From an uncultured Pseudomonadota bacterium (GTDB lineage Bacteria > UBA10199 > GCA-002796325 > 1-14-0-20-49-13), in contig CAZYHS010000002.1 of assembly GCA_964647545.1 (NCBI GenBank), positions 34,695-98,694 on the forward strand: a DNA stretch of 64,000 nt, given 5' to 3'. The position numbers and the translations under genes are program-made. How positions within the stretch are numbered: the first letter of the stretch is position 1; the number at the start of each line of letters is the position of its first letter. Below, one piece after another: positions 7,935 to 43,650 of the stretch. The notes below the pieces were generated by a model. That model worked only from the letters and a program-made list of their open reading frames with translations, ran no database searches and was not told the origin of the DNA.

Positions 7935-8606
7935 ATGATTTTCATGAGCACACGAGAAGAACTTCTAAATATTTTCGAAGTGCTCTTAAAGCACTTTGGC
8001 CCGCAGAAATGGTGGCCCGCCGATTCGCCCTTCGAAGTGATGGTCGGCGCCATCCTTACGCAAAATACCAGCTGGTCAAACGTCGAAAGGGCGATAGCAA
8101 ATTTAAAGAACGCTAAGCTGCTTGACCCGCGAAAAATGCTTCGCCTTGACGCCGAGACGCTCGCAAACTTGATAAGACCCGCAGGCTATCCCAACGTAAA
8201 AACAAAAAGAATACAGAATTTTCTAAGATTTTTCGTCGAAGAGTTCAATGCGGACGTTGCGAAAATGGGGCGCGAGAGCGTCGATTCGCTTCGTGAAAAA
8301 CTCTTGAGCGTGAAAGGCGTGGGGCCGGAAACGGCCGATTCGATTTTGCTTTACGCGCTCGCAAAGCCCGTATTTGTTTGCGACGCCTACACCCACCGCA
8401 TTTTTTCTAGGCACGGCATGTTAGATGAAGGAGTCTCTTACGACGACGTGCGCGCTCTATTTATGGACAACCTCCCAAACGAAGAAAAGCTTTTCAACGA
8501 ATATCACGCGTTGATAGTTAAGACCGGCAAAGATTTTTGCCGGCCGCGTCCAAAGTGCGATTTGTGCCCGCTTGGGGCGCTGCTGAAAAAGCCTCTTAAG
8601 GTTTAA
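7935..8606 (+). CDS. HhH-GPD superfamily DNA glycosylase (endonuclease III-like) with a C-terminal 4-Cys cluster
   Basis: It has an HhH-GPD core (VGAILTQNTSWSNVERA ... GVGPETADSILLYAL) and a C-terminal C-x6-C-x2-C motif. Confidence 0.8.
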   Translation: MIFMSTREELLNIFEVLLKHFGPQKWWPADSPFEVMVGAILTQNTSWSNVERAIANLKNAKLLDPRKMLRLDAETLANLIRPAGYPNVKTKRIQNFLRFFVEEFNADVAKMGRESVDSLREKLLSVKGVGPETADSILLYALAKPVFVCDAYTHRIFSRHGMLDEGVSYDDVRALFMDNLPNEEKLFNEYHALIVKTGKDFCRPRPKCDLCPLGALLKKPLKV

Positions 8607-11181
8607 TTACCGAAAGAACGTAAGCCTTAAGGTCGAGATATCTCTTTGCCGTCGTCAAAACGTCCTGTCGGGTTACTTTTAATATCTTCTGCGGATACTG
8701 TTCCAGTTCGGCGATGCCCAGCCCGTAAAGTTCGTTGTAGGTGTAGCCGCTGGCCAGCGCGCTAACTCTCTGCTGGTCTAATTCGTAGGCTCCAACCATG
8801 TACTGTTTTGCGCGTTCGAGCTCTTCCGGCGAAACAAGCTCTTTGCTTATGAGCGACAGCTCGTTCTTGATGCCGTTAATGGCGGTCTCGGTTTTTGAGG
8901 GGTCGCAGCCGATGTAAACGGCGAAGTAGCCCTCTTCTGGGCCTACGTGCATGGTCGAGTTCACGGCATATGCGAGGCTCATCTTATCGCGCAGCGTCGA
9001 GAAGAGCCGGCCGCCTTGTCCGGCCAGAATGTGATTTAGCACGGCCAGTTTGTAATTGTCAGGCGAGCCGAGATGCGTCCCTAAAAATCCGAGAACGATG
9101 TGGGCTTGCTCTTTCCCCTTTTTTATTTTTTCGGCAGTAACGATATGTTTCGGCCGCACGATCTTTGCCTTTGGGGCTTTGAACCGGCCTATTTTTTTAA
9201 GGTCGATCCAGTCGTTCGCGAGCTTTTTTATCTCTTCGGGATTTACGTCTCCGACGACCGTGATGACAATGTCTGCCGGATTAAGATGGTTCTTCCAGAA
9301 TTTTCTGAGATCGTCGGCGGTCAGCGATGAAACCGTTTCTTTCGTTCCTGTGATGCGCATGCCGTAAGGGTGTTTGCCGTAAAGTGACTTCATGAACTGC
9401 GCAAAGGCCAGCCCCGTCAAATGGTCTTCCTGATTTTTTATCGTTTCGATCTGAAGGGCTTTTTCCTTTTCTACCTCTTTCTTATCGAACGACGGGGCGC
9501 ACATCACCTCGGCGAACATGCCGAAACCGTCGTAAAGTTTTTCACTTAAAAATTCGCAGCGCAGTCCGATAGCATTGCGTCCGCAGACCCCTTCGATCAT
9601 TCCGGCTATCGATTCGATCTTTTTGGCGACTTCGACAGCGTTGCGTTTTGCTGTTCCCTTTGTGATGCTTCTCGCGATGAGGTGTGAGATGCCGTTGTTC
9701 TTCGGAGTCTCGTGTCTTAGCCCGCCGTGCATCGCCGCGTAGATGGCGACAATCGGCAGGACGTGGTTTTCCCGAACGACAAGTTTAATGCCGTTCTTGA
9801 GGCGATAGAGTTTCGGCGCGCTCTTTTGCGATCTTTTCACGACGCTTGTTATTTTGTTCCTTGTGACCGCCGCCTCAAGGGCTTTCGCCGTCGGCTCTAC
9901 CTTCGCCTCTTTTGGGGAGAGGACTTCGAGCGTGCAGTTTTGAGGCGTCAGATATTTCATGGCAACGGCTCGTATCTCTTCGGCCGTCAGGTCGCCGAGT
10001 ACTTGAAAATAGCGCTTTTCAAATTCGTGGTCTCCGGCCGTCGCGGTGAAATAGGCGAATTTTGCCGACATGCCGCCGACCGTTTCCCGTTCGTAAACTT
10101 CGCTTGCGCGAATGTTTATCTTGGCGAGATTGAGCTCGTCGGCCGAAACGGTTTCGGTCGCAATTTTTTGTATCTCTTCCCAGATAGAATCGACAGCTTC
10201 GACAAGTTTTTCAGGTTGAGTGAGACCGCCTATCATGAACAGTCCCGGATATTTCGGCGTGAACGCGTAGCAATAGATCGTGTTCACGAGACGTTTTTTT
10301 TCCTTTACGATCTGCTCGAACCGGCTCGAATCGGCGCCGCCTAAAATGTGGGAAAGGACATCGAGCGCGGCTATGTCGGCGTGCGTAATTTCGGGGACGT
10401 GAAAGCCCATTATGAAATTGGTCGCCTGAATGTCCATCGAGCTTGTGTGAATCTTTAAGTTCGTTTGATGCGGCTCGGCCGGAACTACGACTGTTGGCGC
10501 GATGTTTTCGGGCTGTTTGAAACTTTCGAACGCTTTTGATATCTTTGAGAGCATGCTCTTGGTTTCAAAATCTCCGACCACGATGAACGTCATGTTCTTC
10601 GGCGTGTAGTGGCGCTTGTAGAACGAAAGGACCGTGCTTCGGTCGAACGATTTAACGACGTTTTCAAAACCTATGATGGGCCGGCCGTAAGTGTGCTTTG
10701 AAAATGCGTGCCTAAAAAGATTTTCACTGACGACGTGCCCGGGGTTGTCCTTACCTCTGCGGATCTCTTCGCAGATGACCTCAAGTTCGCGTTCCAGCTC
10801 CTGCTCGTCGAATAGCGGATTAATAACGGCGTCGGAAAGTATTTCGAGGCCTTTGTCCGAAAACCTGCTGGCCATGTTAACGTAAAAAACCGTCTGGTCG
10901 AAGCTTGTGTAGGCGTTTATGTCGCCGCCGGCGGCCTCTATTTCGCGGGCAACGGCGCTCACAGGACGCGTCGGCGTCCCTTTGAAGATCATGTGTTCGA
11001 TAACGTGACAAAGTCCGGCTTCGGCGTTGGTTTCGACGGCCGAACCGACGTTGACCAGAACGCTAAGACTGATGACGGGGGCGGAGTGATTTTCGCACAG
11101 CAGAACATCCATTCCGTTTGGGAGCGTGAATTTTGTAGTTTGCATGCACCGGTTTATAAGTGAGAGGGTGCCAAACGACAA
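8596..11181 (-). CDS. Tandem-domain M16 (pitrilysin/insulinase) family zinc peptidase
   Basis: The inverted zinc-binding motif HxxEH (CHVIEHMIFKGT) lies near the N-terminus. At 861 aa it is consistent with two fused M16 active/inactive halves. Confidence 0.85.
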   Translation of the reverse strand: MSFGTLSLINRCMQTTKFTLPNGMDVLLCENHSAPVISLSVLVNVGSAVETNAEAGLCHVIEHMIFKGTPTRPVSAVAREIEAAGGDINAYTSFDQTVFYVNMASRFSDKGLEILSDAVINPLFDEQELERELEVICEEIRRGKDNPGHVVSENLFRHAFSKHTYGRPIIGFENVVKSFDRSTVLSFYKRHYTPKNMTFIVVGDFETKSMLSKISKAFESFKQPENIAPTVVVPAEPHQTNLKIHTSSMDIQATNFIMGFHVPEITHADIAALDVLSHILGGADSSRFEQIVKEKKRLVNTIYCYAFTPKYPGLFMIGGLTQPEKLVEAVDSIWEEIQKIATETVSADELNLAKINIRASEVYERETVGGMSAKFAYFTATAGDHEFEKRYFQVLGDLTAEEIRAVAMKYLTPQNCTLEVLSPKEAKVEPTAKALEAAVTRNKITSVVKRSQKSAPKLYRLKNGIKLVVRENHVLPIVAIYAAMHGGLRHETPKNNGISHLIARSITKGTAKRNAVEVAKKIESIAGMIEGVCGRNAIGLRCEFLSEKLYDGFGMFAEVMCAPSFDKKEVEKEKALQIETIKNQEDHLTGLAFAQFMKSLYGKHPYGMRITGTKETVSSLTADDLRKFWKNHLNPADIVITVVGDVNPEEIKKLANDWIDLKKIGRFKAPKAKIVRPKHIVTAEKIKKGKEQAHIVLGFLGTHLGSPDNYKLAVLNHILAGQGGRLFSTLRDKMSLAYAVNSTMHVGPEEGYFAVYIGCDPSKTETAINGIKNELSLISKELVSPEELERAKQYMVGAYELDQQRVSALASGYTYNELYGLGIAELEQYPQKILKVTRQDVLTTAKRYLDLKAYVLSVIKP

Positions 11182-15193: not shown

Positions 15194-15240
15194 TAAACTG
15201 GGGGTTTTAGGCTCTAAAGGCCGGAATGACATCGTAAACA

Positions 15241-15345
15241 GTTAATTCGGTTAGGTCCGTTATTTCCGTTAACGGACTAAACGGAAATATCCGAACTAAC
15301 GGAATTAACCGAAATAACCGACGCAACTGGCCTAACCGAATCAAC
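15241..15345. repeat. Intergenic repeat element built from degenerate CCGTTAA / CGGTTAG / TAACCGA-type units (copy 1 of a dispersed family)
   Basis: It reads ...ggtccgttatttccgttaacggactaaacggaaatatccgaactaacggaattaaccgaaataaccgacgcaactggcctaaccgaatc... It has internal hairpins (tatttccgtt / aacggaaata). Motifs such as ccgttatttccgtt, gaattaaccga and ctaaccga recur at 26791-26883 and 38515-38596. Confidence 0.7.
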
Positions 15346-17424: not shown

Positions 17425-17509
17425 GTGTAAAGTTTTCCTTACACAAAAGGCTAATAAATTCAAGTCTTTATGTTGATTTTAAAAAAGTCGGATTTTTATG
17501 AAAATAGTT

Positions 17510-17610
17510 AGCAACTTTTTTGGCTCTACGCCGAAACTTCTCCCGAGTCCGGAGGAAGTATAAAAGGTTGCAAAAAATACAAAGCAACTTTTTTGTATTT
17601 TCGCCGAAAA
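17510..17610 (+). promoter_or_regulatory. Two ~28-bp direct repeats (agcaactttttt-g-N6-cgccgaaa) in the AT-rich leader of the low-GC gene. They may be an operator or duplicated promoter element.
   Basis: Repeat 1 is at 17510-17537 (agcaacttttttggctctacgccgaaa) and repeat 2 at 17583-17610 (agcaacttttttgtattttcgccgaaa). A short palindrome gttgc-N12-gcaac lies between them. The RBS aaggaggg is at 17639. Confidence 0.4.
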
Positions 17611-17650
17611 TATAAACGGAAGGTAATCTTATCTTTTTAAGGAGGGTTTT

Positions 17651-19219
17651 ATGGGTGAACCGAAAGTTAAAGAGTCAATTTTTACAAAATGGGTAGTTAT
17701 CGATTCTGCCGTTGAAAAGTGTAATGCTGAAGATACGCCTGAAGAAAAGGCAGAATGTTTTAAAGGCGCTTACTTCTTGCAGGTCAATGCTGCTAAGGAA
17801 GACTTTTCCCCTTACGCAGGTGCGGTGGGGGTAAAAGGTACTTTTGTTAGAGGTATCGGTGATCTTTGTTCTAATGTGTTCTTAAATGATGGCCCCGGAG
17901 TCAGCGATTTTTTCACAAATGAAAATGATTTTCGGGATCAGGTAGAAGCCATGCAGGCTTGCATGAATAGCATTAATGGTCTTGTCGACAGTTTTCAAAA
18001 AATTTCCCCGAACTGGAGAACAGACATTAGAGACGCAGCATCTGCTGAAAGAAAAAATACAGAGCCCCCAGCGGTTAATCTTCCCGCGTCCGCCGCTCAG
18101 ATATATATAGATAAGTACCGTGATCATTATGTTAGAGCGCTGATTAAGTGGGCGGTAGAAAACCAGCACAGGTTTACTGATGAGCAATTAAAAACGATTG
18201 CTCTTGCAATACATAATATTAAAGCTTCTAAAGAAGGGGCTGCTAGGCTGAAAGCAGAATATGAGGATATCGCCGATGTTGATAAAGAGGCTCGTCGTGC
18301 TGAAAAAGTAACAGTGAAAGGTGTGGTCGGTGTTGATAATAGATCGGGGTCGGCATTTAAAAGCGGAGTAAAAAAGATTTCCGCTGATGGCGACTCTATT
18401 TTAGATGTTAAAGTAGGTCTTGGTTTTAACTCACTTGATAAAAATAATCCAGCAGTTGCCGAGATGGTGAAGCCTGGTGGTAGTAGTATGTCAGGTTTTT
18501 CGTTTAATGGCGTTTCATTTGGGACCAGATTATTCTCTAAAGACTTCTTTACTCTAAAAACTGAAATGGCATTTGAGCTCAAAAGTGTTTCAATTATTCC
18601 AAAAGTGGAGTTTGCCGTTACAGAAAATGTGAAATTGGTTGCAGAAAATACTTTCAAAAATTCAAGCTATGAAAGCATGGCAATGAACTACACTCCGAAG
18701 GTTGGCGTTGAATTTGAAAGTAAGGAAGGTTGGTTGGCAGAAGCGGGCGGTCATGTTGGTGCAACGATTCCAAATGATGGTGGGAATTCTATTGCCTTTG
18801 ATGCCAATGCAAAAGTCCGTTGGTTTGATGGGTTCACAACGGGCTTGGAGTTTACCTATGGCGATCCGATTGGTCGAGCCGGCTATGCTATTGGGGCAGT
18901 AGCCGATGATTATAACACAAATGTTAAGCTTGTTAACGAATATGAATTTGAAAGTCCCCTCCTCGGACGTTTTAAGAATGTTGGTTTAACAGCTGAGTGG
19001 GCATATTTTGATAGATCAGTTGTGGCTGGTGGCGATGGCGGAGAGCTAGAGTATTCACTCAATATGTTTTCTACATATGCATCGGTTGCCCTTATTTTTA
19101 ATGACTTTTTAACTACAAAATTTAACGTGGGTTACATAGGTCTTTTCCCAAAGCTTGATTCGGCAGGAGATCCGATAAATGCTTTATATTTAGGTGCTGA
19201 GTTTGGGCTTGGGCTTTGA
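17651..19219 (+). CDS. Orphan 522-aa protein on a low-GC island: a helical N-terminal half, a beta-strand-rich C-terminal half with alternating hydrophobic residues (beta-barrel-like), and no N-terminal signal peptide
   Basis: It has a strong RBS. Base composition is visibly AT-richer than the flanks (low-40s % GC by eye versus mid/high-50s). The C-terminus is ...YLGAEFGLGL. I do not recognise the family. Confidence 0.7.
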   Translation: MGEPKVKESIFTKWVVIDSAVEKCNAEDTPEEKAECFKGAYFLQVNAAKEDFSPYAGAVGVKGTFVRGIGDLCSNVFLNDGPGVSDFFTNENDFRDQVEAMQACMNSINGLVDSFQKISPNWRTDIRDAASAERKNTEPPAVNLPASAAQIYIDKYRDHYVRALIKWAVENQHRFTDEQLKTIALAIHNIKASKEGAARLKAEYEDIADVDKEARRAEKVTVKGVVGVDNRSGSAFKSGVKKISADGDSILDVKVGLGFNSLDKNNPAVAEMVKPGGSSMSGFSFNGVSFGTRLFSKDFFTLKTEMAFELKSVSIIPKVEFAVTENVKLVAENTFKNSSYESMAMNYTPKVGVEFESKEGWLAEAGGHVGATIPNDGGNSIAFDANAKVRWFDGFTTGLEFTYGDPIGRAGYAIGAVADDYNTNVKLVNEYEFESPLLGRFKNVGLTAEWAYFDRSVVAGGDGGELEYSLNMFSTYASVALIFNDFLTTKFNVGYIGLFPKLDSAGDPINALYLGAEFGLGL

Positions 19220-19262
19220 TGGAGTGATGAGAGATTTTAATAATCAAAAGGGTTAAAGGGAT

Positions 19263-21893
19263 ATGAAAAATTATTCAAAAAATTTAGTGCTGGCCTTGGT
19301 TGCCGTAGCTTCAATGACGGCGATCGCAGCCTGTGGTGACGGTAACGCCGCCAAAGCGCCTGCTCCGCTTCCTTCCGAATCGTGCATTGCCACGATCTCG
19401 GCGGTCAAGGCGGGCGATAGCGAGGCGATGCCCGTAACGGGAGAACTCGCAATTGAAGACGGCGAGAGCGTAGTTCTTTCTTGGACTGTGTCTCCTGTCA
19501 CCGCGGCCACCCTTACAAGCGAACCAAGCGCGGTGGTCGGACAGGAAATCAAACTGGCCCTCACACCTCTTAACAAAGACGACAAGATCGACGAAGCGGC
19601 GGGAATCATACCCCCCAGCGAATCGGTCGGCGAAATGGAATTTAGAGCGCTAAAAAATGACGCCACTTTCACTGTTTCGGGCACCAACGCCGAAAAAGGC
19701 AAAGAGGCCACGACATGCAAAGCCAGCATAAGCGTTGTGATCATGCCGGCTCGGGCCGAAGTCAAAATCGACAAATTCGAAGCTTTGACCCCCGAGGTCG
19801 AAGTGAACCAGCCCGCGACCCTCTGCTGGCAGGTTAGCGGAAGCGACGTCGCAGTTTCGGTCAGCGATGAAGATGGCGAAGTTATAGAAAGCTCCTCGGA
19901 GGCCGAAGGTTCGGTCGAAGAGAGCGGCGCGGTCGAAGCGGCAAAGGCGATGCTCGGCGCGAAATCTCAGGAATCTCTTGAAACTTCGGCTCTTGAAACC
20001 GATGCCTGCACGGAAGTTAAACCCACAAAGACAACAACCTACACTTTGACGGCGGTGGCAAAAGACGGACGCATCGCCACCACGAGAGTCACGGTTCGAG
20101 TTAAAGCGCCGGAGATCAAAGCAGATATTTTCGCGAACAACATTCCGGAAAATCTTATTGTCACGCAGCCGGGCGAAGTCGAACTTAGCTGGAACGTTAC
20201 CCCTGCAGACGCCGTCGTAACCATAGACGGAATCGGCAAAGTGGCGTCTATCGGCAGCCAGAAAGTTACTGTAACCGATGATGTTACGACCTTCAGAATT
20301 ACGGCGACATACGACGATAAGGTCGTTACAAAAGATGTGCGCGTTGTGATTCAGCGCAACGCTGCTTCTCTTTACATGTTAAATCTTGCCAGCTCGGCCG
20401 CCGGCAGCGTGTTTGCCGGAGAGACGGTCAAGCTTTCTTGGAATCTTACTTCCGGCGAAGGGGCCGCTACGGCTCCCGAAGGGGCCAAGTTCTTCATCGA
20501 CGGGCCCGAAGGTCGCGTTGAAGTCAGCGGTAATTCCGCCGAATTCGCCCCGAAAGCGGCCGGAACCTACGTTGTTAGGATGCTTAGCTCCAACGGCGAA
20601 GTTGTCAGCAATCAGGTGAAAATCAATATCCGCAACTGGCAGATTCACGACCTCGGTTCGTCGCTGGGTTCTGTTGCGGCTGCCGATAAAAATACGGTTG
20701 TTGCGGCAAGTCTTGCAAATTCATACGACAGCGTCAAATTTGCAAAACTTTCAGGTAGAAAAACTCTCGAAAAGAGCACGCTTGACTATGGGAAATCTTA
20801 CAGTGGGCTCTTCTTTTCCAGCATGGATGTAAGCAAGTTGGCTGACTTTGGCGATATCACGGTGAACAATATCAGCGTTGATAAGGCAACCGGCCGTCTC
20901 TATGCTTCAATGACCGGCATGGTATTTTATTCAGACAACAAAGGTAGGTCGTGGACGCCGGTCGATTTTCTGCACGTTTTGTCGACAATGGTAAAAAACG
21001 ACAAAGACTTCCTTGAATACAAAGGTTGCAAAGGCGCGGCCCGCAAAGGTGCGTCGAACAAAAAACATGTTGTGATTGCTCTTCATGACGTTTGCGACGC
21101 CGAAGCGATCGGTGAAAGACTCCTTGTCGCAACGAACTGGGGCGTTTACTACAAAGATAATATCAATGCTTTTATGAAAGACGCCAAGTCGAGAGACAAA
21201 GACAAATGCTGGGTCGGCAACCCTTACGTTGCAAAATGTAAGAAGGTCGAAACGGCGTTGACCGGCACAACCGTCAACGTACTTGAATCGTTCGGCGGCG
21301 CGGTTTTCGCGGGCACGGAAAAGGGCGTTTTCGTCACAAGAGATAACGGCGAAACATGGAACGAATCAAACGGCGGCGACATGGACAGCTCGACGGTCGT
21401 CTATGCCCTTACGATCGATGCGGCCGGTAAAGCAATTTACGCTGCAGGCCCGAACGGAGTTTTTGTGGCCGAACTTGGCGGCGTGACATGGAAAAAGCTC
21501 GGTGACGCAGCAGGCGCGACAGTTGCTTACAGCGTAACGGTCGATCCGACAGTTGCTTCAACTCTCTACGTCGGCACCGACGCGGGCGCGTTCATTTCGC
21601 GCGACGCGGGTGCTACATGGGCGCCGATTTCATCTTCGATGAACTCGGTCGGCCCTGTTTATGGAGTTACGGCGGTCGAGTCAGGCGCAGGTACCGCGGT
21701 TTACGCCGCGACTGCAGACGGTCTCTATAGCTCATTTTCGACAACGATCGTTAACGAGCTTGTCGGCGGAGTGTCGCCGGCGCAGCCTGAAATTCCTGAG
21801 ACCACTCCCGAAACTCCCGTTATCGAGGAGCCGGTGACGACCCCGACCGACCCCGACACGGTAGCGGCAGATGCGATGAAATCGATGTTCTAA
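19263..21893 (+). CDS. Large lipoprotein with N-terminal Ig-like (Big-type) beta-sandwich repeats and a C-terminal BNR/Asp-box (S-x-D-x-G-x-T-W) beta-propeller-like region
   Basis: The lipobox is IAAC (LVLALVAVASMTAIAAC). It has repeated modules of about 90 aa. The Asp-boxes are SDNKGRSWTPV, TRDNGETWNES and SRDAGATWAPI. Confidence 0.8.
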   Translation: MKNYSKNLVLALVAVASMTAIAACGDGNAAKAPAPLPSESCIATISAVKAGDSEAMPVTGELAIEDGESVVLSWTVSPVTAATLTSEPSAVVGQEIKLALTPLNKDDKIDEAAGIIPPSESVGEMEFRALKNDATFTVSGTNAEKGKEATTCKASISVVIMPARAEVKIDKFEALTPEVEVNQPATLCWQVSGSDVAVSVSDEDGEVIESSSEAEGSVEESGAVEAAKAMLGAKSQESLETSALETDACTEVKPTKTTTYTLTAVAKDGRIATTRVTVRVKAPEIKADIFANNIPENLIVTQPGEVELSWNVTPADAVVTIDGIGKVASIGSQKVTVTDDVTTFRITATYDDKVVTKDVRVVIQRNAASLYMLNLASSAAGSVFAGETVKLSWNLTSGEGAATAPEGAKFFIDGPEGRVEVSGNSAEFAPKAAGTYVVRMLSSNGEVVSNQVKINIRNWQIHDLGSSLGSVAAADKNTVVAASLANSYDSVKFAKLSGRKTLEKSTLDYGKSYSGLFFSSMDVSKLADFGDITVNNISVDKATGRLYASMTGMVFYSDNKGRSWTPVDFLHVLSTMVKNDKDFLEYKGCKGAARKGASNKKHVVIALHDVCDAEAIGERLLVATNWGVYYKDNINAFMKDAKSRDKDKCWVGNPYVAKCKKVETALTGTTVNVLESFGGAVFAGTEKGVFVTRDNGETWNESNGGDMDSSTVVYALTIDAAGKAIYAAGPNGVFVAELGGVTWKKLGDAAGATVAYSVTVDPTVASTLYVGTDAGAFISRDAGATWAPISSSMNSVGPVYGVTAVESGAGTAVYAATADGLYSSFSTTIVNELVGGVSPAQPEIPETTPETPVIEEPVTTPTDPDTVAADAMKSMF

Positions 21894-21921
21894 AATTTAA
21901 GTCGTTTTAAAAAAATGATCA

Positions 21922-21956
21922 GGCCCTGCGAGAGAGATTTCGCAGGGCCTTTTTTA
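21922..21956 (+). terminator. Rho-independent terminator after the Ig/BNR lipoprotein gene
   Basis: The stem is ggccctgcg / cgcagggcc with a 10-nt loop, followed by TTTTTTT. Confidence 0.65.
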
Positions 21957-21995
21957 TTTGGTGCAAAATCGTCCCTCTTTGTTTATAAAGCCCAA

Positions 21996-22388
21996 ATGAA
22001 ATTCACCACATTTTTTGCAGTTTGTTTTGTTTCGCTGGCCTTGAGCCTCGCGTGCTTTGCCGGTGCCTCCTCAAAAAGTTCAAAGGGCCGGTCGGCCCAA
22101 GCGATCTCCGAGCAAGCCGAACCGTTTTTCGGCTGGCAAAAGCTCGATATCAACGCACGTCAAACGTGGGAAGATTACCGGCAGCTAAAAATGGAGCTGA
22201 TGATAAAATGCACCAAGCCTGTCGGTAAGGCCGAAAAGAAAATCATAAGCGAAGCCGGATTTATCCCGACAGTTTGTGCCGGCGATATTTGCACCGGAAA
22301 GATCGCTATTAACGACTTGCCGAAGCTTGCGACCGTCGATTTTTTACAGGCGGTTGAAGGGGCAAAGGCCCTTCATTACAAAAAATAG
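21996..22388 (+). CDS. Small secreted protein (signal peptide, ~105-aa mature) immediately upstream of the S8 protease. It may be an inhibitor or chaperone.
   Basis: The real start is MKFTTFFAVCFVSLALSLACFAGA with an AxA cleavage site. The ORF-track start at 21915 would run through the upstream terminator. Confidence 0.6.
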   Translation: MKFTTFFAVCFVSLALSLACFAGASSKSSKGRSAQAISEQAEPFFGWQKLDINARQTWEDYRQLKMELMIKCTKPVGKAEKKIISEAGFIPTVCAGDICTGKIAINDLPKLATVDFLQAVEGAKALHYKK

Positions 22389-22406: not shown

Positions 22407-24695
22407 ATGAAAAACACAAAAAAAGTTTTGCTGGCCGTTGCTGCGTTTACGCTTTGCGCGTTATCTTTTAGTTCGCACGCTTCAAATAAGATCGACCCGC
22501 TGCTCGAAATTATGGCGGCACGGGGCCCCAAACAGGCGGCTACTTCAATGAAGGCCTTTGGAGTGGCTTCGTCGTCAGACGGTGTCGTAGAGGTGGAGGC
22601 CCTCGTGAAATCGGGCCCCGACGTCGGCGCTGCGGTCGAAGCGATCGAATCGGCAGGCGGCAAGGTCGGGTTGATCCTCGGCGATATCCTTACGGTTTCG
22701 ATGCCGCTCGATGCGGTTGCTGTCTTGGAGAACGAGCCCGACATTATTTACGTCGAGGCGGCCAAGCCTCTTTCGGCAAAGATGAACTTTGCCCGCACGG
22801 TTACCTTCGTTGACCTTGTTCAGAGCGGAAGCGGCACCGGAGGAACGCCCTACAACGGTAGCGGAGTTTTTGTCGGCGTCGTCGATAGCGGGATCGACTG
22901 CCAGCACGCCGATTTTTTCAGCGGAACGACCCCGCGTATCTACGCCTATTGGGACCAGACGGCTTCCGGCGACGGCGTCGCCGAGATCGCCGGAACTACC
23001 GGAGTTGAATATACCGGCGCCGATCTTGACATTGACGGCGCGTGTAAAAATTCTCCGGACGATCCGGCCTCCAATTCGGGGGGCGGACACGGCACTCACG
23101 TTGCCGGTATCGCGGCCGGTTCAAATTCGACCTACACAGGAGTTGCTCCGCAATCGAATCTTGTCGTCGTAAAACTGGACGAGTCGGGAGCTAGCGGCGG
23201 AACCAGCGGGCCTCTTGCAACGAGAATTCTCGAAGGTGTTCAATATATTTTCAAAAAAGCGCAGTCTTTAAAGAAACCGGCGGTCGTCAATCTTTCGATC
23301 GGCACATCGCTCGGCGCGCACGACGGCACCTCGCTTTTGGAAAAAGGTCTCGACAATCTTTTAATGGAGGACACCACCACCGAAAAACAGGGGCGTGCGA
23401 TCGTCAATGCAGTCGGCAACGAAAACGCCTATTACAACCGTCTTGCGACCGGCAACAACAACATAGGCGGTATTCACGCAGCCATTTCGCAGTCGGGCGG
23501 CTCGTCATGGGCTTATGAGATTCATTCGACAAACGCAACTGCGGGCCTTGTCGGAGGGACTTACGTTGACATCTGGCTTAATGCAGACAGCTCATGTTCG
23601 ATAGGCGTAAACGCACTCTACAAAGACGCGCATTCTCTTGCGGTCAGAATGATTCCGGTTCGCGCCGGCTACTCAAACAAGAACTCGCCCACCAAGATCG
23701 GCAACGTTTCGATGTACGTCGATTTCAGCGAGAACGTCAGCGCACTAAACGGCATGCAGCACGCCGTTGCGCTGATTGGAACGACCAGCCCCCTTGACCC
23801 TCAAATAGAAAACTATTCGCACGATCTCGTCTTTACGGGCAATTGTACCGGCAATGCGTGGATCTATTACGATAGCGTTGCTTACAATTATTTTTACAAC
23901 GGACACGCAGGTCAGATCTTCAACGACGGCGGGGTCACTTATCGTTATGTCGCCGGAGATTCAAATAACACCGCGACAATTCCGTCGACCGCAACGAAGG
24001 TAATTGCGGTCGGTTCATTCATGGCAAGAAATACTTACGTCGATATTAATGATCAGGTACGCAGCCAGCAAAGTGTAAGCTACGGCAGCGCCACCAACAT
24101 TTCTACCTTTTCAAGCCTTGGCCCGACCAGCGAACCGATTTCAAGCAACCGGCGCTATAAGCCGGACATCGGCGCTCCCGGGGAACCCATTATTTCAACT
24201 TTAACGACACAAAATACGGTGAGCGCTTCGTTAAAGGGCGACGCAACTCATTGGAAGATGCAGGGCTCGTCGATGGCATCTCCGCACGTGGCCGGCGTCG
24301 TCGCGCTCATGCTCAATAAGAACGGATGTCTCAAACCTTCCGTTGTCAAAAGTACCTTGCTTGGCACTGCCGATCAGGACTCTTACACCGGAGCTGTTCC
24401 CAATAATTATTGGGGATACGGCAAGGTCAACGCACAGAGCGCCGTGAATTCTACCAAAGCTAGAATATGTTCGCCCGACAACCCAGCCGAAGACGGTTGT
24501 GTTTACGATTCCGATTGCCCAAGCGGCTATTCGTGCGTCAATAACGTCTGCCAGAAAAATACAACGAAAACATGTTCACTTATTTTAAGCGGAACCCCGC
24601 AAAAGAGATCGTGGACAGATGTTTTGTCGCTGCTGTTTGGAATTGCCGTTGTGGGCGCTCTTAGAGCGAGAAAGTATTTTGACTCTATCAGATGA
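22407..24695 (+). CDS. Subtilisin-like serine protease (peptidase S8) with a signal peptide, a Cys-rich C-terminal module and a C-terminal hydrophobic helix plus basic tail
   Basis: The catalytic triad is in canonical order: D in VGVVDSGIDCQHADF, H in GGGHGTHVAGIAAG and S in GSSMASPHVAGVVALM. The C-terminus reads ...KTCSLILSGTPQKRSWTDVLSLLFGIAVVGALRARKYFDSIR. Confidence 0.9.
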   Translation: MKNTKKVLLAVAAFTLCALSFSSHASNKIDPLLEIMAARGPKQAATSMKAFGVASSSDGVVEVEALVKSGPDVGAAVEAIESAGGKVGLILGDILTVSMPLDAVAVLENEPDIIYVEAAKPLSAKMNFARTVTFVDLVQSGSGTGGTPYNGSGVFVGVVDSGIDCQHADFFSGTTPRIYAYWDQTASGDGVAEIAGTTGVEYTGADLDIDGACKNSPDDPASNSGGGHGTHVAGIAAGSNSTYTGVAPQSNLVVVKLDESGASGGTSGPLATRILEGVQYIFKKAQSLKKPAVVNLSIGTSLGAHDGTSLLEKGLDNLLMEDTTTEKQGRAIVNAVGNENAYYNRLATGNNNIGGIHAAISQSGGSSWAYEIHSTNATAGLVGGTYVDIWLNADSSCSIGVNALYKDAHSLAVRMIPVRAGYSNKNSPTKIGNVSMYVDFSENVSALNGMQHAVALIGTTSPLDPQIENYSHDLVFTGNCTGNAWIYYDSVAYNYFYNGHAGQIFNDGGVTYRYVAGDSNNTATIPSTATKVIAVGSFMARNTYVDINDQVRSQQSVSYGSATNISTFSSLGPTSEPISSNRRYKPDIGAPGEPIISTLTTQNTVSASLKGDATHWKMQGSSMASPHVAGVVALMLNKNGCLKPSVVKSTLLGTADQDSYTGAVPNNYWGYGKVNAQSAVNSTKARICSPDNPAEDGCVYDSDCPSGYSCVNNVCQKNTTKTCSLILSGTPQKRSWTDVLSLLFGIAVVGALRARKYFDSIR

Positions 24696-26428
24696 AGAAG
24701 ATAAAATTTCTAGTTATTTTGGGCTTTTTTGTTTTATCGCTTCCGGCTTTCGCAAAGGAGCCGAAGTTCATCGAAGAGTTTAGCGCCCTTTCGGAGCGAT
24801 GGGGGAGCCTTTCTGCAAACCAGCGCATGTTTTTAATGGGCTATGCATCGTACAGAGAAGGGCGTTTAAACGAAGCCAAACGTAAGTTTACCGCGATCGA
24901 CGGAAAGTATCCGCTGCTGCAGGGATACATTTCAGAGTTTTTGGCAAAGATCAAAAACGGAGGCGAAAGATATTCGTTCGTTGATAAGCAGGCCGACGCC
25001 GATAAGAATGCCGCAGCCCTCACTAAAATTTTCGAAAAGTCGCGCAGCCCCGATGACGCATACTCCGCAGCGCGCGCGCAGTTTGTCGCACGCGATTACC
25101 AAAAAGCCGCCGAACTTTTTTTGCTGGCCGAAAAGTCTCAGAAACAGCGGCTGTCGGCTCTTGAATATCTTGCCACCTGCTATGCAAGGCTCGAAAAATA
25201 TGACGAGGCCATAAAAATCCACGAACAGATCATCGACGAATTTCCGTCAAATAAAAAGGCGCATGCGAAGGCGTTGTTTAAGATCGGTTTTCTGCACCTC
25301 GACGGCGGAAATTACGAATCTGCGCGCGACGATTTTTCTATGCTGGAAAAATATTCCCATGACTACCAGCGCGAGCAGGTCAGGTGGTATCTTGCGTGGA
25401 TATCCTTAAAGTTGGGCGAGTTCGACCGTGCGGCTCGGCTGTTTTCGGACATTGAAAGACGCGGCGGCAAAGATTGGCCGGCTCGCGCCCGTTTCTGGCG
25501 TGCCGAATCGCTTGAACGTTCGGGCAAGCTAGAGGCGGCGAACGCAATTTACGAGTCAATCATGTCGAAGTCGCCGCTGACCTATTATGGGATTTTGTCC
25601 GCCTCGAAGCTGGGGCAAAAGATTTCCAAACTCCCCGACTTTACCGAAGAGGACGAGGCCGAAGCCGTGTCGGAGGCCGAAGCGAAAAATTCGCCGGAGA
25701 GTTCTAACGGAGAAGCTTCGGGCGAGATTGCTCCCGACGGTCTTGGCGAACGCGCTAAAATAATTCTTGAGCTCGACAGGCTTGATGTGAGCGAGCTCGT
25801 CAGTCTAGAGATCGACTCCTTGATGGCGAAGCCGCCAAAAGATGCCGACTGGAATTCAATTCTTGCGCTTGCGAAAAAGCACGACGCTTGGAATGCGGTC
25901 CGCAAAATGGCCAAGGGTAAGATACGCAGTCATTTAAAGGACGGAAAAAACCTCGCGTGGGAAGTGGCCTACCCGAATGCATGGAAAAAACTTGTCGAGG
26001 CAAACGGCGTTCGTTTTGGCGTCGATCCGAAATTTATCTGGTCGATCATGCGCGAAGAATCGACGTTCAGACCAAAAGTTGTGTCGCCGGCCGGCGCGGT
26101 AGGTCTCATGCAGTTAATGCCGAAGACCGCGGCGAAGATGGCGCAATTAGGCGGTAGGAGTTCGTTTGCCGCCGAACGTCTTTTTCATCCGGCGTTTAAT
26201 ATCGAAATGGGGACGCGCTATCTTGCATTTCTCACCAAGCGCTACAATGGCAATAAGTTCCTAGCTGCGGCCGCTTACAACGCCGGCGAACAGGCGGTTG
26301 ACAGGTGGATAAGCGACCAGAAAAATTTCAGCGAAGACTTTGTCGAAGAAATTCCCTACAAAGAGACACGCAATTACGTCAAAAAAGTTCTCAAGAGCTA
26401 CTGGATCTACAGCACGATTTATAAATAA
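24692..26428 (+). CDS. Soluble lytic murein transglycosylase (TPR/superhelical N-domain plus SLT catalytic domain)
   Basis: It has a signal peptide and TPR-like repeats. The SLT motifs are ESTFRPKVVSPAGAVGLMQLMPKTA (catalytic Glu) and AAYNAGEQAV. It overlaps the S8 stop by 4 nt. Confidence 0.85.
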   Translation: MKKIKFLVILGFFVLSLPAFAKEPKFIEEFSALSERWGSLSANQRMFLMGYASYREGRLNEAKRKFTAIDGKYPLLQGYISEFLAKIKNGGERYSFVDKQADADKNAAALTKIFEKSRSPDDAYSAARAQFVARDYQKAAELFLLAEKSQKQRLSALEYLATCYARLEKYDEAIKIHEQIIDEFPSNKKAHAKALFKIGFLHLDGGNYESARDDFSMLEKYSHDYQREQVRWYLAWISLKLGEFDRAARLFSDIERRGGKDWPARARFWRAESLERSGKLEAANAIYESIMSKSPLTYYGILSASKLGQKISKLPDFTEEDEAEAVSEAEAKNSPESSNGEASGEIAPDGLGERAKIILELDRLDVSELVSLEIDSLMAKPPKDADWNSILALAKKHDAWNAVRKMAKGKIRSHLKDGKNLAWEVAYPNAWKKLVEANGVRFGVDPKFIWSIMREESTFRPKVVSPAGAVGLMQLMPKTAAKMAQLGGRSSFAAERLFHPAFNIEMGTRYLAFLTKRYNGNKFLAAAAYNAGEQAVDRWISDQKNFSEDFVEEIPYKETRNYVKKVLKSYWIYSTIYK

Positions 26429-26790: not shown

Positions 26791-26883
26791 TTGCTCCGTT
26801 ACCGTGATCCGGTTATTTCCGTTTAGTCCGTTAACAGAATTAACCGACCTAACCGACAAAACCGAATTAACTGAACTAACTGA
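26791..26883. repeat. Intergenic repeat element, copy 3 of the CCGTTAA / TAACCGA family
   Basis: It reads ...ccggttatttccgtttagtccgttaacagaattaaccgacctaaccgacaaaaccgaattaactgaactaactga. It shares ccgttatttccgtt, gaattaaccga and ctaaccga with copy 1, and taactgaact with copy 4. Confidence 0.7.
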
Positions 26884-37733: not shown

Positions 37734-37806
<73 letters not shown>

Positions 37807-41493: not shown

Positions 41494-41565
41494 TTTATTA
41501 TATTTTTAGTTTAATATCTTCGTACTCAATTTTGTAATACCGAACAATTGGAAGGGGAAACATCA

Positions 41566-43650
41566 ATGAAAAAGCTTTATTCTAAAGTAACGTCGCTGCT
41601 GGTTTTGGCAATGCTTGCCGTAGGGTGCGGCGGAGGAGGTTCGTCCACAATAACGGTCACTCTTGCCCCTGCCGATGGTGCTAAAAACCAAACGGCAAGT
41701 GTTAGCGTCAAGGCAACTTTTAGCGCTGCCGTAACGGCTCCAACGGCAGGGTGGGAAAGTGTTTTTACAGTTAAGAAGGCCGGCGGGGTAAATGAATGTA
41801 ATGCATACGAATTGGATCAGACTTCAACTATTCTAACCTGCTTGCACGATGATTTTGAAGGCGAGACAGAGTACACCTCATCCATGCTTGCATTTTCGAA
41901 CGTAATTGCAGCGTCTGCCAAATTCACCACTGCCGGCACGGATTCATATTCGATCGGCGGAGTTCTGACGGGGCTTGCCAGCTCTCGCAATGTTGTTCTG
42001 CAAAACAATGGCGGTGACAATCTTACGCTTACGGCAAATGGTAATTTTACATTCGGTACAGAGTTAAACAACGGGGATGCCTATGCAGTTACCGTAAAAA
42101 CAGCTCCTACAGGACAAGCCTGTAAGGTGACCAACGGAACCGGCACGGTCAATACGGCCAATGTTACAAATATTGCGGTGGCTTGCGAGAGCAGATGGCT
42201 TTCCGGAAATTTTAACATGATTTATTCCCCTGCTCTTGTCGCAGATTTTAAAGTGACATTAAGTGACAACGGTGTAGGAATTGCTTCGGGTAAAACGGCC
42301 TCAAATTATAATATTTCGATCGCTTATACATCGGGATACGCAACTTGCGCAGGTTCAATCACTGCCGAAAATACAAATATCAAATGTGGCGGATGTTCGA
42401 TCGCGCCAAATGGAGACACAGTTAGTTTCACGGCCTGTCCGATTCCAGATACCGGTTCAACCAATATTACTTTCAGCAAATTGCCGATCGGTGACGGTTC
42501 GCTTACCGGCACTTACGCCCTTGGGGATTCGCTTTATACAATGCAAGAGAATGCGAACGAGGGGTTGTCGGCTAGCGACCCTGCCCAAGTGACAATTTAC
42601 TATTCAAAAGGATATGCAGCTTGCAATGCCATAGTTTCAGGGGAGGATCCGGAAGCCTGCTCGGCCTGCGCTATTTTGGAAGGCGGCAACAGACTTAATC
42701 TTACTTGCCCCGGCGTTGGGGAGATATCTTTAATTAAAGTGGCTACCGTGGCCTTTACTCCGCTTAACGGTACTAGCGGCGTCGAAACAGACACTTTGAT
42801 TAAGGCCACGTTCAGCAAAGCCGTATCTGCCCCTGAAGGCGGATGGGATACAGTTTTTACAGTTAAAAATGCGGCGGGGACGGGCACAAATGTGTGCACT
42901 GGATATGCTTTTAATGGCCCCCAGACAGAGGTGACATGCCTTCATGAGGCTTTAGCGGAAGGTGCGGTCTATAAGGCCGATATCTCTGATTTAGATGGGG
43001 TTTTGGATGGTTCCGCAGAATTTACTCCTCTTACGGCAAGCATTACTTCCAAAGATTCTCCTGTCAGTACAACAGCTGGTAATACGGTCACGGTTTCCGT
43101 TCAGTTTAGCAGAGTTCCGGAGATTGAGCCGACAGTTACCGTGGCTGGAGGAACGGCTGAAGCCGGTGCTTGTGCTTCCTCGGGGCTCGATCATAATTAT
43201 GAGTGCGAGATTAACAGCGTTGCCGGTTGCTCGACCAATGTAAACTATTCGGTTGGGATAAAGCTGAGCACTATTAGCATGAATGGTTTTGCGTTCAACT
43301 CTCTAGACGATGAATTTCAATGGGGTAACGACATTCTAACCGATATGATAGCTGCCGACGCTTCCAAATGCTGGGATAAACAGGAGACATCGGGGGACAT
43401 CGAAACAGTTTATAACATGGATACAGAGGGGATCAATTTCATAGTGTCCAATGGTGGTGGGCCATACGTTGAGCTGGCTAAGTCTTTTACATTTGAGTCC
43501 GATGACAACCTTGCGGTTTCGGCAAAGATAATGCCGGCCATCCAAGTGCCTTCGACAGATGGTTCCGAGTCCAAACTATTCTTTGCGGACCCAACCCAAG
43601 AGGCCAGAATAGGGTTTCAGGGGGGGGCAATATCCGGCGTTTGGGTTTGA
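41566..43650 (+). CDS. Large repetitive lipoprotein (Ser/Thr/Gly/Asn-rich, internal ~350-aa duplications). Its reading frame is interrupted at a G8 tract.
   Basis: The start MKKLYSKV has an RBS ggaagggg and the lipobox is LAVGC. The segment SAAVTAPTAGWESVFTVKKAGGVNECNAYELDQTSTILTCLHD is repeated as SKAVSAPEGGWDTVFTVKNAAGTGTNVCTGYAFNGPQTEVTCLHEA. The stop at 43648-43650 lies 21 nt after the poly-G run at 43620-43627. Confidence 0.75.
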   Translation: MKKLYSKVTSLLVLAMLAVGCGGGGSSTITVTLAPADGAKNQTASVSVKATFSAAVTAPTAGWESVFTVKKAGGVNECNAYELDQTSTILTCLHDDFEGETEYTSSMLAFSNVIAASAKFTTAGTDSYSIGGVLTGLASSRNVVLQNNGGDNLTLTANGNFTFGTELNNGDAYAVTVKTAPTGQACKVTNGTGTVNTANVTNIAVACESRWLSGNFNMIYSPALVADFKVTLSDNGVGIASGKTASNYNISIAYTSGYATCAGSITAENTNIKCGGCSIAPNGDTVSFTACPIPDTGSTNITFSKLPIGDGSLTGTYALGDSLYTMQENANEGLSASDPAQVTIYYSKGYAACNAIVSGEDPEACSACAILEGGNRLNLTCPGVGEISLIKVATVAFTPLNGTSGVETDTLIKATFSKAVSAPEGGWDTVFTVKNAAGTGTNVCTGYAFNGPQTEVTCLHEALAEGAVYKADISDLDGVLDGSAEFTPLTASITSKDSPVSTTAGNTVTVSVQFSRVPEIEPTVTVAGGTAEAGACASSGLDHNYECEINSVAGCSTNVNYSVGIKLSTISMNGFAFNSLDDEFQWGNDILTDMIAADASKCWDKQETSGDIETVYNMDTEGINFIVSNGGGPYVELAKSFTFESDDNLAVSAKIMPAIQVPSTDGSESKLFFADPTQEARIGFQGGAISGVWV
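43620..43627 (+). repeat. G8 homopolymer tract at the junction of two co-directional ORFs. It is a candidate slipped-strand phase-variation site, or a frameshift error.
   Basis: It reads cag-ggggggg-caa. Removing one G puts 41566-43650 in frame with 43658-44107, and the alternative frame is open from 43613. Confidence 0.6.

What the first reader, a model, noticed from the sequence alone, without database searches (positions are those of the whole stretch)
17465..19260. Single-gene low-GC island encoding an orphan 522-aa protein with a beta-barrel-like C-terminal half
This ~1.8 kb block is clearly AT-richer than both flanks (low-40s versus mid/high-50s % GC by eye). It has an AT-rich leader and a strong RBS. 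The protein has no N-terminal signal peptide. Its first ~230 aa look helical and contain Cys, and the last ~280 aa show alternating-hydrophobic beta-strand patterning ending in ...GAEFGLGL. The composition points to horizontal acquisition, and the function is unknown. It could be a toxin or effector, a phage-derived protein, or a secreted protein exported by a non-Sec route.
Basis: partly seen in the sequence, partly recalled or inferred. Interest (0 to 1): 0.6.

Follow-up and report, generated by a model that had tools for sequence, protein, structure and literature searches.

The report
Strain-variable orphan gene in envelope operon
This low-GC gene is not an inserted island: it fills a fixed slot at the head of a cell-envelope operon where nearly identical strains carry versions only ~27% alike, and the protein has no known relatives or fold.

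Summary
ORF 17651-19219 (+) encodes 522 aa behind an AAGGAGG RBS. It is the most AT-rich 1.6 kb of the window (GC 0.414). Its GC3 is 0.325 against 0.589±0.046 for 41 other ORFs. It has no signal peptide, and none is possible upstream.

It is not an insertion. In two metagenomes the same slot holds a 542-aa homolog only 27-29% identical, with no detectable DNA similarity. The slot lies between the acylphosphatase gene and a BNR lipoprotein gene. The 16 flanking genes are 94-100% identical. Identity stops 8 nt into the ORF and resumes about 20-33 nt after the stop. Synonymous sites are saturated (pS 0.80, flank dS 0.03-0.07), so the alleles are ancient.

These two proteins are the only family members among about 15 billion. 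No Pfam, NCBIfam, PHROGs, PADLOC or PDB hit was found, and both AlphaFold runs failed (pLDDT 33-34).

X heads a tightly packed five-gene run whose other four products all carry export signals. Two of those genes contain their own hypervariable patches.

Best reading: a strain-variable exposed envelope protein exchanged by recombination in conserved flanks. The evolutionary part is well supported. Function, location and export route are inferred.

The parts
17464..17650 (+). Conserved AT-rich intergenic leader of gene X, not part of the swapped segment. It carries a 36-nt direct repeat (17501-17536 and 17574-17609), a perfect 10-bp palindrome (17574-17583 / 17592-17601) and the RBS AAGGAGG (17639-17645).
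   Evidence: There is 1 mismatch in about 210 nt against the allele-B strain. The leader RNA folds with z = -2.8, and an anti-SD-like CUUCUCCC pairs with the RBS in the minimum-free-energy structure. No Rfam family matches.
17651..19219 (+). Gene X, allele A: a 522-aa orphan protein, acidic (pI 4.9), with no signal peptide and no TM helix.
   Evidence: The only relative in 1.84 billion cluster representatives is P0002.
17651..18295 (+). N-terminal domain (residues 1-215), predicted helical. It carries four Cys (24, 36, 73, 104) conserved in both alleles, plus the conserved motifs SIFT, ECFK and KNTEPP. The two alleles are 34% identical here.
18296..19216 (+). C-terminal domain (residues 216-522). 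It is Cys-free, Gly- and aromatic-rich, and predicted as about 16 long amphipathic beta-strands. Conserved motifs are NSIA, GDPIG and GGD. The two alleles are 25% identical here.
   Evidence: The Foldseek search gave no significant hit.
17659..19239 (+). The swapped segment: the ORF body from codon 3 onwards plus a short 3' tail. It has no detectable DNA similarity to the allele-B strains.
   Evidence: blastn identity ends at 17658 and resumes at 19240. The base-level alignment places resumption at about 19252. The 5' junction is shown.
19263..21893 (+). Second gene of the run: an 876-aa lipoprotein with a BNR/sortilin-type propeller. It is 94% identical between strains and contains a hypervariable patch at about 20640-21240.
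   Evidence: pS 0.75 and pN 0.30 in codons 481-540. The lipobox is shown.
21915..22388 (+). Third gene: a small exported protein of unknown function. The signal-like hydrophobic stretch begins at the internal Met28.
   Evidence: It is 98.7% identical between strains.
22407..24695 (+). Fourth gene: an S8 subtilase with a Sec signal, a Cys-rich module and a C-terminal hydrophobic anchor. Divergent patches lie at about 24040-24440 and 24640-24740.
24692..26428 (+). Fifth gene: a TPR plus SLT lytic transglycosylase with a Sec signal. It overlaps the S8 gene by 4 nt.

Best explanation
Gene X is the hypervariable first gene of a five-gene cell-envelope operon in an uncultured diderm bacterium. The operon order is X, BNR lipoprotein, small exported protein, S8 protease, SLT transglycosylase.

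X exists in the population as at least two anciently diverged alleles. They share length, a two-domain architecture, four Cys and several short motifs, but only about 27% of residues. The alleles are exchanged between nearly identical genomes by homologous recombination. The crossovers fall in the conserved leader and start codon on one side and in the conserved RBS region of the next gene on the other. The low GC3 and T-rich third positions are the signature of that separate history, not of a newly inserted island.

Most likely role (inferred, not shown): an exposed envelope component. It would have a helical N-domain, possibly stapled by two disulfides, and an amphipathic beta-sheet C-domain that forms a barrel or a sheet array. 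It would be held polymorphic by negative frequency-dependent selection from phages, predators or other surface-recognising agents. It would reach the envelope without a Sec signal, by a route that is still unknown.
For: SHOWN
1. Same slot, same architecture, 27-29% identity. P0002 lies between the same acylphosphatase and BNR genes.
2. 16 flanking genes are 94-100% identical, median about 99%.
3. DNA identity is 99% upstream to 17658 and 96% downstream from 19240, with nothing detectable in between.
4. Synonymous sites in X are saturated (pS 0.795, pN 0.50), against dS 0.03-0.07 in the MFS, 157-aa and SLT genes. The divergence is therefore old, not merely fast protein evolution.
5. Both alleles keep intact 522- and 542-aa ORFs with conserved Cys and motifs, so both are under purifying selection.
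6. Each allele is seen in two independent samples. A is in the window and L001. B is in L002 and L003/L004. The allele-B junctions and the allele-A 3' junction are confirmed by independent assemblies.
7. Gaps between the five genes are 43, 21, 18 and -4 nt. No terminator-like site was found on the + strand after X.
8. All four downstream products carry Sec or lipoprotein signals.
9. Two further localised hypervariable patches, with saturated pS, lie in the BNR and S8 genes. They are separated from X by about 99-100% identical DNA. More than 20 kb of other shared sequence has none.
10. There is no paralog in the window and none from the same genome in the protein collection, so a silent-cassette system is unlikely.

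INFERRED
- Envelope location, from the operon context, the four conserved Cys confined to one domain, and the acidic, Cys-free, Gly- and aromatic-rich amphipathic beta C-domain.
- The selective agent.
- The export route.
Against: - No signal peptide is present, and none is possible in either allele. No secretion-system genes appear in the 64-kb window. Envelope localisation therefore lacks a mechanism.
- Both structure predictions failed (pLDDT 34 and 33). No structural match is significant. The fold is therefore unknown.
- Amphipathic strands fit soluble beta-sandwiches as well as barrels.
- Only two alleles and roughly six samples are known, so balancing selection cannot be told from one or two recent imports.
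- Co-transcription is inferred from gene spacing only.
Confidence: 0.5

Rival explanations
1. Plain horizontal acquisition. A foreign single-gene island was inserted between the acylphosphatase and BNR genes, with no particular selective maintenance.
For: X has an extreme GC3 and codon-usage deviation. It is an orphan in all databases searched.
Against: - The slot is filled by a homolog of the same architecture in the sister strains, and no empty site was seen.
- The borders coincide with the start codon and the next gene's RBS.
- The leader is native.
- There is no integrase, tRNA, IS element or target duplication at the borders.
- The neighbouring BNR protein is just as lineage-restricted, so part of the orphan status reflects poor sampling of the lineage.
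Confidence: 0.12
2. X is a cytoplasmic protein, for example a single-gene anti-phage or abortive-infection factor, or a pore-forming toxin kept inside the cell until triggered. It would be hypervariable because of an arms race with phage proteins.
For: X has no signal peptide. It is a low-GC, hypervariable single gene, as is common for defence genes. It has a sensor-like helical domain plus a possibly membrane-active beta domain.
Against: - There is no PADLOC, Pfam or NCBIfam match, and no NTPase, nuclease or other effector motif.
- X sits at the head of an operon of four exported envelope proteins, not in a defence island.
- The adjacent S8 protease is itself exported, so it cannot act as a cytoplasmic activator.
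- No allele-specific partner or immunity ORF lies in the swapped segment.
- The independent hypervariable patches lie in extracytoplasmic neighbours.
Confidence: 0.2
3. X is a surface-layer or adhesin-type protein secreted by a type 1 secretion system through a C-terminal signal. C. crescentus RsaA and C. fetus SapA are signal-less examples of this kind (my own knowledge).
For: - No N-terminal signal.
- Acidic pI of 4.9.
- A Cys-free, beta-rich C-terminal part.
- A conserved GGD element near the C-terminus.
- A long, structured leader and a strong RBS, as seen for abundant surface proteins.
- Strain hypervariability, which is typical of S-layer genes.
Against: - There are no RTX nonapeptide repeats, only a single GGD.
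- No ABC, MFP or TolC genes lie in the operon or the window.
- Four conserved Cys are unusual for T1SS substrates.
- X's codon usage runs opposite to the probably highly expressed PPDK gene (GC3 0.657). It therefore does not look translationally optimised.
Confidence: 0.13
4. X is a classical BAM-assembled outer-membrane beta-barrel, such as a porin or an Msp/Tpr-like protein with a periplasmic N-domain.
For: - The organism appears to be a diderm (TonB C-terminal domain protein).
- The C-domain has OMP-like composition and about 16 amphipathic strands.
- The weak Foldseek list is dominated by membrane barrels.
- The size and two-domain layout recall Treponema Msp (my own knowledge).
Against: - There is no Sec signal in either allele.
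- The C-terminus ends in Leu rather than an aromatic residue.
- No OMP, MOSP_N or MOSP_C hit appears, even at E ≤ 10.
- All structural matches are non-significant, and they come from a pLDDT-33 model.
Confidence: 0.05

Closest known systems
Replacement-type flexible genomic islands and allele-class surface loci. Examples are P. aeruginosa pilA and fpvA, E. coli fliC and OMP genes under mosaic evolution, and the C. difficile S-layer cassette (my own knowledge). See also PMC12175518 on mosaic evolution of E. coli OMP genes and PMC13043062 on plug-and-play capsule loci, both seen only as abstracts.
   Same: - A fixed chromosomal slot with highly conserved flanks.
- Deeply divergent alleles with atypical composition.
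- Sharp recombination borders.
- Neighbouring surface genes with a mosaic of divergent patches.
   Different: The protein belongs to none of those families. It has no signal peptide. Only two alleles are known so far. The selective agent and the host organism are unknown.
Treponema Msp/Tpr proteins (Pfam MOSP_N plus MOSP_C).
   Same: - About 520-540 aa.
- An N-terminal non-barrel domain followed by a beta-rich C-terminal half.
- Strong between-strain variability.
- A subtilase gene nearby, with a weak partial hit of the S8 gene to dentilisin PrtP.
   Different: There is no sequence match to MOSP_N or MOSP_C, even at E ≤ 10. X has no signal peptide. The host lineage is unidentified.
T1SS-secreted S-layer proteins (RsaA, SapA).
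   Same: Signal-less, acidic, beta-rich, strain-variable, and preceded by a long leader and a strong RBS.
   Different: X has no RTX repeats and no adjacent transporter genes. It also has four conserved Cys.
Three-domain Cry-type toxins.
   Same: No signal peptide. An N-terminal bundle of about 7 long helices over roughly 215 aa is followed by all-beta domains.
   Different: There is no Endotoxin_N, M or C hit. X is shorter. It sits in a chromosomal envelope operon rather than a toxin context.

Membership tests
Horizontally acquired genomic island (insertion) | Presence/absence polymorphism: an empty site in close relatives. | tested here: not met
   All relatives that span the site carry a divergent homolog in the slot.
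Horizontally acquired genomic island (insertion) | Mobility hallmarks at the borders: integrase, tRNA, IS element or direct repeats. | tested here: not met
   No such genes flank X. No flanking direct repeats were found. The borders fall at the start codon and at the next gene's RBS.
Horizontally acquired genomic island (insertion) | Deviant base composition and codon usage. | tested here: met
   GC3 is 0.325 against 0.589±0.046, and the CAI-like index is 0.596 against 0.706±0.034.
Replacement-type hypervariable surface locus (allele classes at a fixed slot) | Homologous but deeply divergent alleles between near-identical flanks, with sharp borders. | tested here: met
   Amino-acid identity is 27%, against 94-100% in 16 flanking genes. 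X has pS 0.795 against flank dS 0.03-0.07.
Replacement-type hypervariable surface locus (allele classes at a fixed slot) | The product is exposed on the cell surface. | not testable with these tools
   There is only context: an operon of four exported proteins and hypervariable patches in two of them. X itself has no export signal.
Replacement-type hypervariable surface locus (allele classes at a fixed slot) | Multiple alleles co-circulating in one population. | tested here: inconclusive
   Only two alleles are known, each in two samples. Contig L016 ends exactly at the swap border, at window 17659. This is compatible with an assembly branch but proves nothing.
Classical outer-membrane beta-barrel (Sec plus BAM substrate) | N-terminal Sec signal peptide. 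| tested here: not met
   There is no hydrophobic core (score 1.37, against 2.48 or more in the neighbours). An in-frame stop lies 9 codons upstream in both alleles.
Classical outer-membrane beta-barrel (Sec plus BAM substrate) | C-terminal beta-signal ending in an aromatic residue. | tested here: not met
   The alleles end in ...AEFGLGL and ...GVFIEL. The last strand is amphipathic, but the terminal residue is Leu.
Classical outer-membrane beta-barrel (Sec plus BAM substrate) | An even number of amphipathic transmembrane strands closing into a barrel. | tested here: inconclusive
   About 16 strands with significant dyad amphipathicity are predicted. The model has pLDDT 33, and no structural hit is significant.
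Treponema Msp/Tpr (MOSP_N / MOSP_C) | A match to the Pfam MOSP_N or MOSP_C profile. | tested here: not met
   No Pfam family at E ≤ 10, for whole proteins or for the separated halves of both alleles.
T1SS substrate / RTX-type S-layer protein | Gly-Asp nonapeptide repeats and an adjacent ABC/MFP/OMF transporter. | tested here: not met
   There is a single conserved GGD and no repeats. No transporter genes lie in the window. The rest of the genome was not available.
Known anti-phage defence systems | A match to a PADLOC model or a recognisable effector domain. | tested here: not met
   No PADLOC hit for either allele at E ≤ 1. No Pfam or NCBIfam domain.
Phage-derived protein | Homology to phage protein families or viral contigs, or phage genes nearby. 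| tested here: not met
   No PHROGs hit at E ≤ 1. No relative in IMG/VR contigs. The neighbours are housekeeping and envelope genes.
Polymorphic toxin or bacteriocin with cognate immunity | An allele-specific immunity gene that travels with the variable toxin segment. | tested here: not met
   The swapped segment holds only the X ORF. The small and antisense ORFs differ between alleles.
Three-domain Cry toxins | A match to the Endotoxin_N, M or C profile. | tested here: not met
   No Pfam hits.
Silent-cassette antigenic variation (sap, tprK, pilS type) | Paralogous donor copies in the same genome. | tested here: not met
   No paralog in the 64-kb window. Only one family member comes from the NCBI genome, out of about 15 billion proteins. 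Unassembled parts of the genome cannot be excluded.

The most novel reading that the evidence does not exclude
X founds a new class of envelope or outer-membrane beta-proteins that reach the surface without a Sec signal.

Support is thin. A second, unrelated signal-less, Gly-rich beta-type protein lies in the same window (47218-47793, -). It has an OMP-like aromatic C-terminus and sits next to another exported BNR-like protein. This hints that the uncultured lineage may have a non-Sec pathway for such proteins, with X as its hypervariable, phage- or predator-exposed member.
Probability: 0.08. Interest if true: 0.85.

Novelty: new variant of a known kind. Interest (0 to 1): 0.45.

Why it matters
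If the reading is right, three things follow.
- The locus marks the main strain-discriminating surface determinant of an uncultured, poorly sampled diderm lineage. It would be the place to look for phage receptors or kin and predator recognition.
- It adds a protein family with no detectable relatives or known fold to the short list of replacement-type hypervariable loci.
- The missing export signal poses a concrete, testable question about how such a protein reaches the envelope.

For scanning practice, the lesson is that a low-GC single-gene block is not necessarily an insertion. Comparison with sister strains turned an 'island' into an allele slot.

Tried and rejected
Homology and family searches on X
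- Pfam, NCBIfam, PHROGs and PADLOC gave nothing, for whole proteins and for split domains of both alleles, up to E = 10.
- PDB sequence searches with the single protein and with the two-sequence profile gave nothing.
- The word-indexed search found only the protein itself, with the single sequence and again with the alignment.
- The exhaustive HMMER search found one relative, P0002.

Searches of sequence collections
- GTDB species representatives, scanned with the X alignment and with the BNR neighbour, gave no relatives.
- The metagenome scan with the BNR alignment returned only generic BNR-domain hits.
- The viral contig scan returned none.
- Exact look-ups of flanking proteins found only short contigs that stop before or at X, and no third allele.

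Structure
- AlphaFold on the full length and on the C-domain gave pLDDT 34 and 33. The coordinates were not used.
- Foldseek against the PDB gave no significant hit.

RNA and literature
- Rfam on the leader and on the whole window found only tRNA-Ala.
- Searches for the sample accessions and for signal-less barrel families found nothing specific.

Ideas rejected
- Upstream start with a signal peptide: an in-frame stop rules it out.
- Internal repeats or paralogs: none.
- S8 pseudogene in sample 3300026163: the split is a scaffold gap of NN.
- Fast positive selection alone: synonymous sites are saturated.
- Translational optimisation as the cause of the odd codon usage: the bias runs opposite to PPDK and other high-CAI genes.
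Full report
**1. Observation**

The ORF at 17651-19219 (+) is real.
- It is preceded by an AT-rich 187-nt intergenic leader and the RBS AAGGAGG, 5 nt before the ATG.
- Its GC is 0.414, against 0.512 for the window. No other 1.57-kb stretch is as AT-rich.
- The deviation is at synonymous sites. GC1 and GC2 are ordinary. GC3 is 0.325 against 0.589±0.046 in 41 other ORFs, and a CAI-like index is 0.596 against 0.706±0.034.
- Third positions are 42% T, against 22% in the neighbouring gene.
- X's GC3 is also well below every other exported-protein gene in the window (0.45-0.59).
- An in-frame TAA lies 9 codons upstream, so no N-terminal extension exists. The N-terminus has no hydrophobic core.

**2. 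Orphan status**
- Pfam, NCBIfam, PHROGs, PADLOC and PDB sequence searches return nothing, even at E = 10 and with the two halves searched separately.
- A word-indexed search of 5.8 billion proteins finds only the protein itself.
- An exhaustive HMMER pass over 1.84 billion cluster representatives finds one relative. This is P0002: 542 aa, E = 8e-26, 27-29% identity.
- The two proteins align end to end. They share four Cys (24, 36, 73, 104 in X) and the short motifs SIFT, ECFK, KNTEPP, NSIA, GDPIG and GGD.
- A control matters here. The neighbouring BNR lipoprotein is equally lineage-restricted. The lineage was not found in two scans of GTDB species representatives. Part of the orphan status therefore reflects poor sampling.

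**3. The key result: a fixed slot with swapped content**

P0002 lies on a 12.9-kb JGI contig (L002) at exactly the same position. The gene order there is MGMT-like protein, MFS transporter, acylphosphatase, P0002, BNR lipoprotein, 157-aa protein, S8 protease, SLT. A second JGI sample carries the same allele (99.9% identical), split over two contigs that end inside the gene. An independent Logan assembly (L001) reproduces the window's allele and its 3' junction at 100%.

Between the window and these strains:
- 16 shared genes are 94-100% identical at the protein level (median about 99%), while X is 27%.
- DNA identity is 99% up to window 17658, which is 8 nt into the ORF. It is 96% from 19240 onwards. 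Nothing is detectable in between.
- The leader differs at 1 of about 210 positions. In the base-level alignment, downstream identity resumes about 10 nt before the BNR start codon.

What is exchanged is therefore the ORF body plus a short tail. The promoter region, leader, RBS and start codon are native. There are no mobility genes, tRNA or flanking repeats at the borders. No second ORF is shared by the two versions of the segment.

**4. Age of the divergence**

Nei-Gojobori estimates give pS 0.795 (saturated) and pN 0.50 for X. The MFS, 157-aa and SLT genes give dS 0.03-0.07.

Fast protein evolution alone cannot saturate synonymous sites. The two alleles are therefore far older than the genomes they sit in. 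Both keep long intact ORFs and conserved motifs, so both are functional.

The flanks are almost identical right up to the borders. This fits alleles circulating within one recombining population better than a single import from a distant donor, although two alleles cannot settle the point. Allele B is less deviant in composition (GC3 0.468).

**5. Context**

X is followed, at gaps of 43, 21, 18 and -4 nt, by four genes:
- a lipoprotein with a BNR/sortilin-type propeller;
- a small exported protein;
- an S8 subtilase with a Cys-rich module and a C-terminal anchor;
- a TPR-SLT lytic transglycosylase.

All four have clear Sec or lipoprotein signals. No terminator-like site was found on the + strand after X.

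The same operon holds two further sharply bounded hypervariable patches. One is in the BNR gene (about 20640-21240, up to 37 mismatches per 100 nt, pS 0.75). The other is in the S8 gene (about 24040-24440, up to 30 per 100 nt). Both are separated from X by DNA with 0-3 mismatches per 100 nt, and both coincide roughly with GC dips. More than 20 kb of other shared sequence shows nothing comparable.

The operon as a unit therefore looks like the strain-variable face of the cell. A TonB C-terminal-domain protein elsewhere in the window indicates a diderm.

**6. The protein**
- It is acidic (pI 4.9) and has no TM helix.
- The N-terminal 215 residues are predicted helical and hold all four conserved Cys.
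- The C-terminal 300 residues are Cys-free and rich in Gly and aromatics.
- Both AlphaFold runs failed (pLDDT 34 and 33), so no coordinates are trusted.
- Their secondary structure suggests 7-9 helices followed by about 16 long strands. Those strands show dyad amphipathicity well beyond shuffles (2.75 against 1.48±0.28). The strands were chosen by the model, which favours such patterns.
- Foldseek against the PDB gives no significant match (best E = 0.24, TM ≤ 0.28). The weak list is dominated by membrane barrels, which shows only that the model is an up-down meander.
A soluble beta-sandwich or a sheet array fits equally well.

**7. Explanation and rivals**

Best reading (confidence about 0.5 overall): X is a replacement-type hypervariable locus encoding an exposed envelope component. 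Its alleles are exchanged by homologous recombination in conserved flanks and are probably kept diverse by frequency-dependent selection.
- The evolutionary half rests on direct sequence comparison and is solid.
- Localisation, the selective agent and the export route are inferences.
- The missing signal peptide is the main unexplained point.

Rivals:
- a cytoplasmic defence or toxin protein (0.2);
- a T1SS-secreted S-layer-type protein (0.13);
- a plain inserted island (0.12);
- a classical BAM-assembled outer-membrane protein (0.05).

The evidence for and against each rival, and the defining features tested for each family, are set out in the structured sections of this report.

**8. Novelty and score**

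The evolutionary pattern is a known kind. Examples are allele classes at pilA, fpvA, fliC, OMP genes and S-layer cassettes (my own knowledge). PMC12175518 and PMC13043062 are general precedents, seen only as abstracts. The protein family, its fold and its signal-less state are not known.

I rate it a new variant of a known kind, with interest 0.45. It is a clean and instructive case and a possible handle on a new envelope protein class, but it currently has no demonstrated function or mechanism.

Noticed in passing
window 20640-21240 (inside the BNR lipoprotein gene 19263-21893): A sharply bounded hypervariable patch against the sister strains: 16-37 mismatches per 100 nt, against 0-3 elsewhere. 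In codons 481-540, pS is 0.75 and pN is 0.30. It overlaps a GC dip of about 0.46. This is an independent mosaic segment in an exported protein next to X.
   Followed up: yes
window 24040-24440 and 24640-24740 (S8 protease gene 22407-24695, and the start of the SLT gene): More divergent patches (10-30 mismatches per 100 nt) and a 9-nt indel against the sister strains. A GC dip (about 0.455) lies at and just downstream of this region (24400-24999).
   Followed up: partly
window 47218-47793 (-), with orf378 at 47810-48946 (-): A second signal-less protein: 191 aa, Gly-rich and beta-type, starting MGFLGD... behind AAGGAGG-N6-ATG. It ends in an OMP-like ...LLGLQAVFY. It lies 17 nt downstream of a Sec-signal protein with a BNR-like C-terminus. 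It has no Pfam hit and no similarity to X. It parallels X in lacking an export signal while sitting next to a BNR-type exported protein.
   Followed up: partly
window 17464-17650 (leader of X): The leader holds several features:
- a 36-nt direct repeat (17501-17536 and 17574-17609, 81% identical);
- a perfect 10-bp palindrome (17574-17583 / 17592-17601);
- a predicted RNA fold with z = -2.8, in which CUUCUCCC (17539-17546) pairs with the RBS;
- a 21-codon uORF (MKIVSNFFGSTPKLLPSPEEV) at 17498-17563.
These may be regulatory. The leader is 99% conserved between strains, and no Rfam family matches.
   Followed up: partly
L016 (Logan SRR11845624), ending at window 17659: This independent short contig stops exactly at the first allele-specific base of X. 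Other short contigs (L017, L018) also stop just before X. This is compatible with assembly-graph branching caused by co-existing alleles, but it is not proof.
   Followed up: partly
window ~15237-15309 and ~26802-26873: Short related sequences (78-91% identity, in both orientations) appear in two intergenic regions that bracket the wider locus. They were seen as blastn cross-hits through L004. They may be a small repeated intergenic element.
   Followed up: no
window 41548-43650 (+): A 700-aa Big_5-domain lipoprotein has the second-lowest GC3 (0.452) and CAI-like index (0.619) in the window. It may be another variable surface gene. No sister-strain sequence covered it.
   Followed up: no
window 9482-9571 (-): ARAGORN calls a 90-nt tRNA-Arg(acg) inside the M16 peptidase ORF (8596-11181). 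Rfam at gathering threshold does not confirm it and finds only tRNA-Ala at 37734-37806. It is probably a false positive.
   Followed up: partly
L003 4533-6777 (JGI 3300026163): The S8 protease is called as two genes there (477 + 285 aa). The split is caused by a scaffold gap (NN replacing 35 nt), not by a real frameshift.
   Followed up: yes
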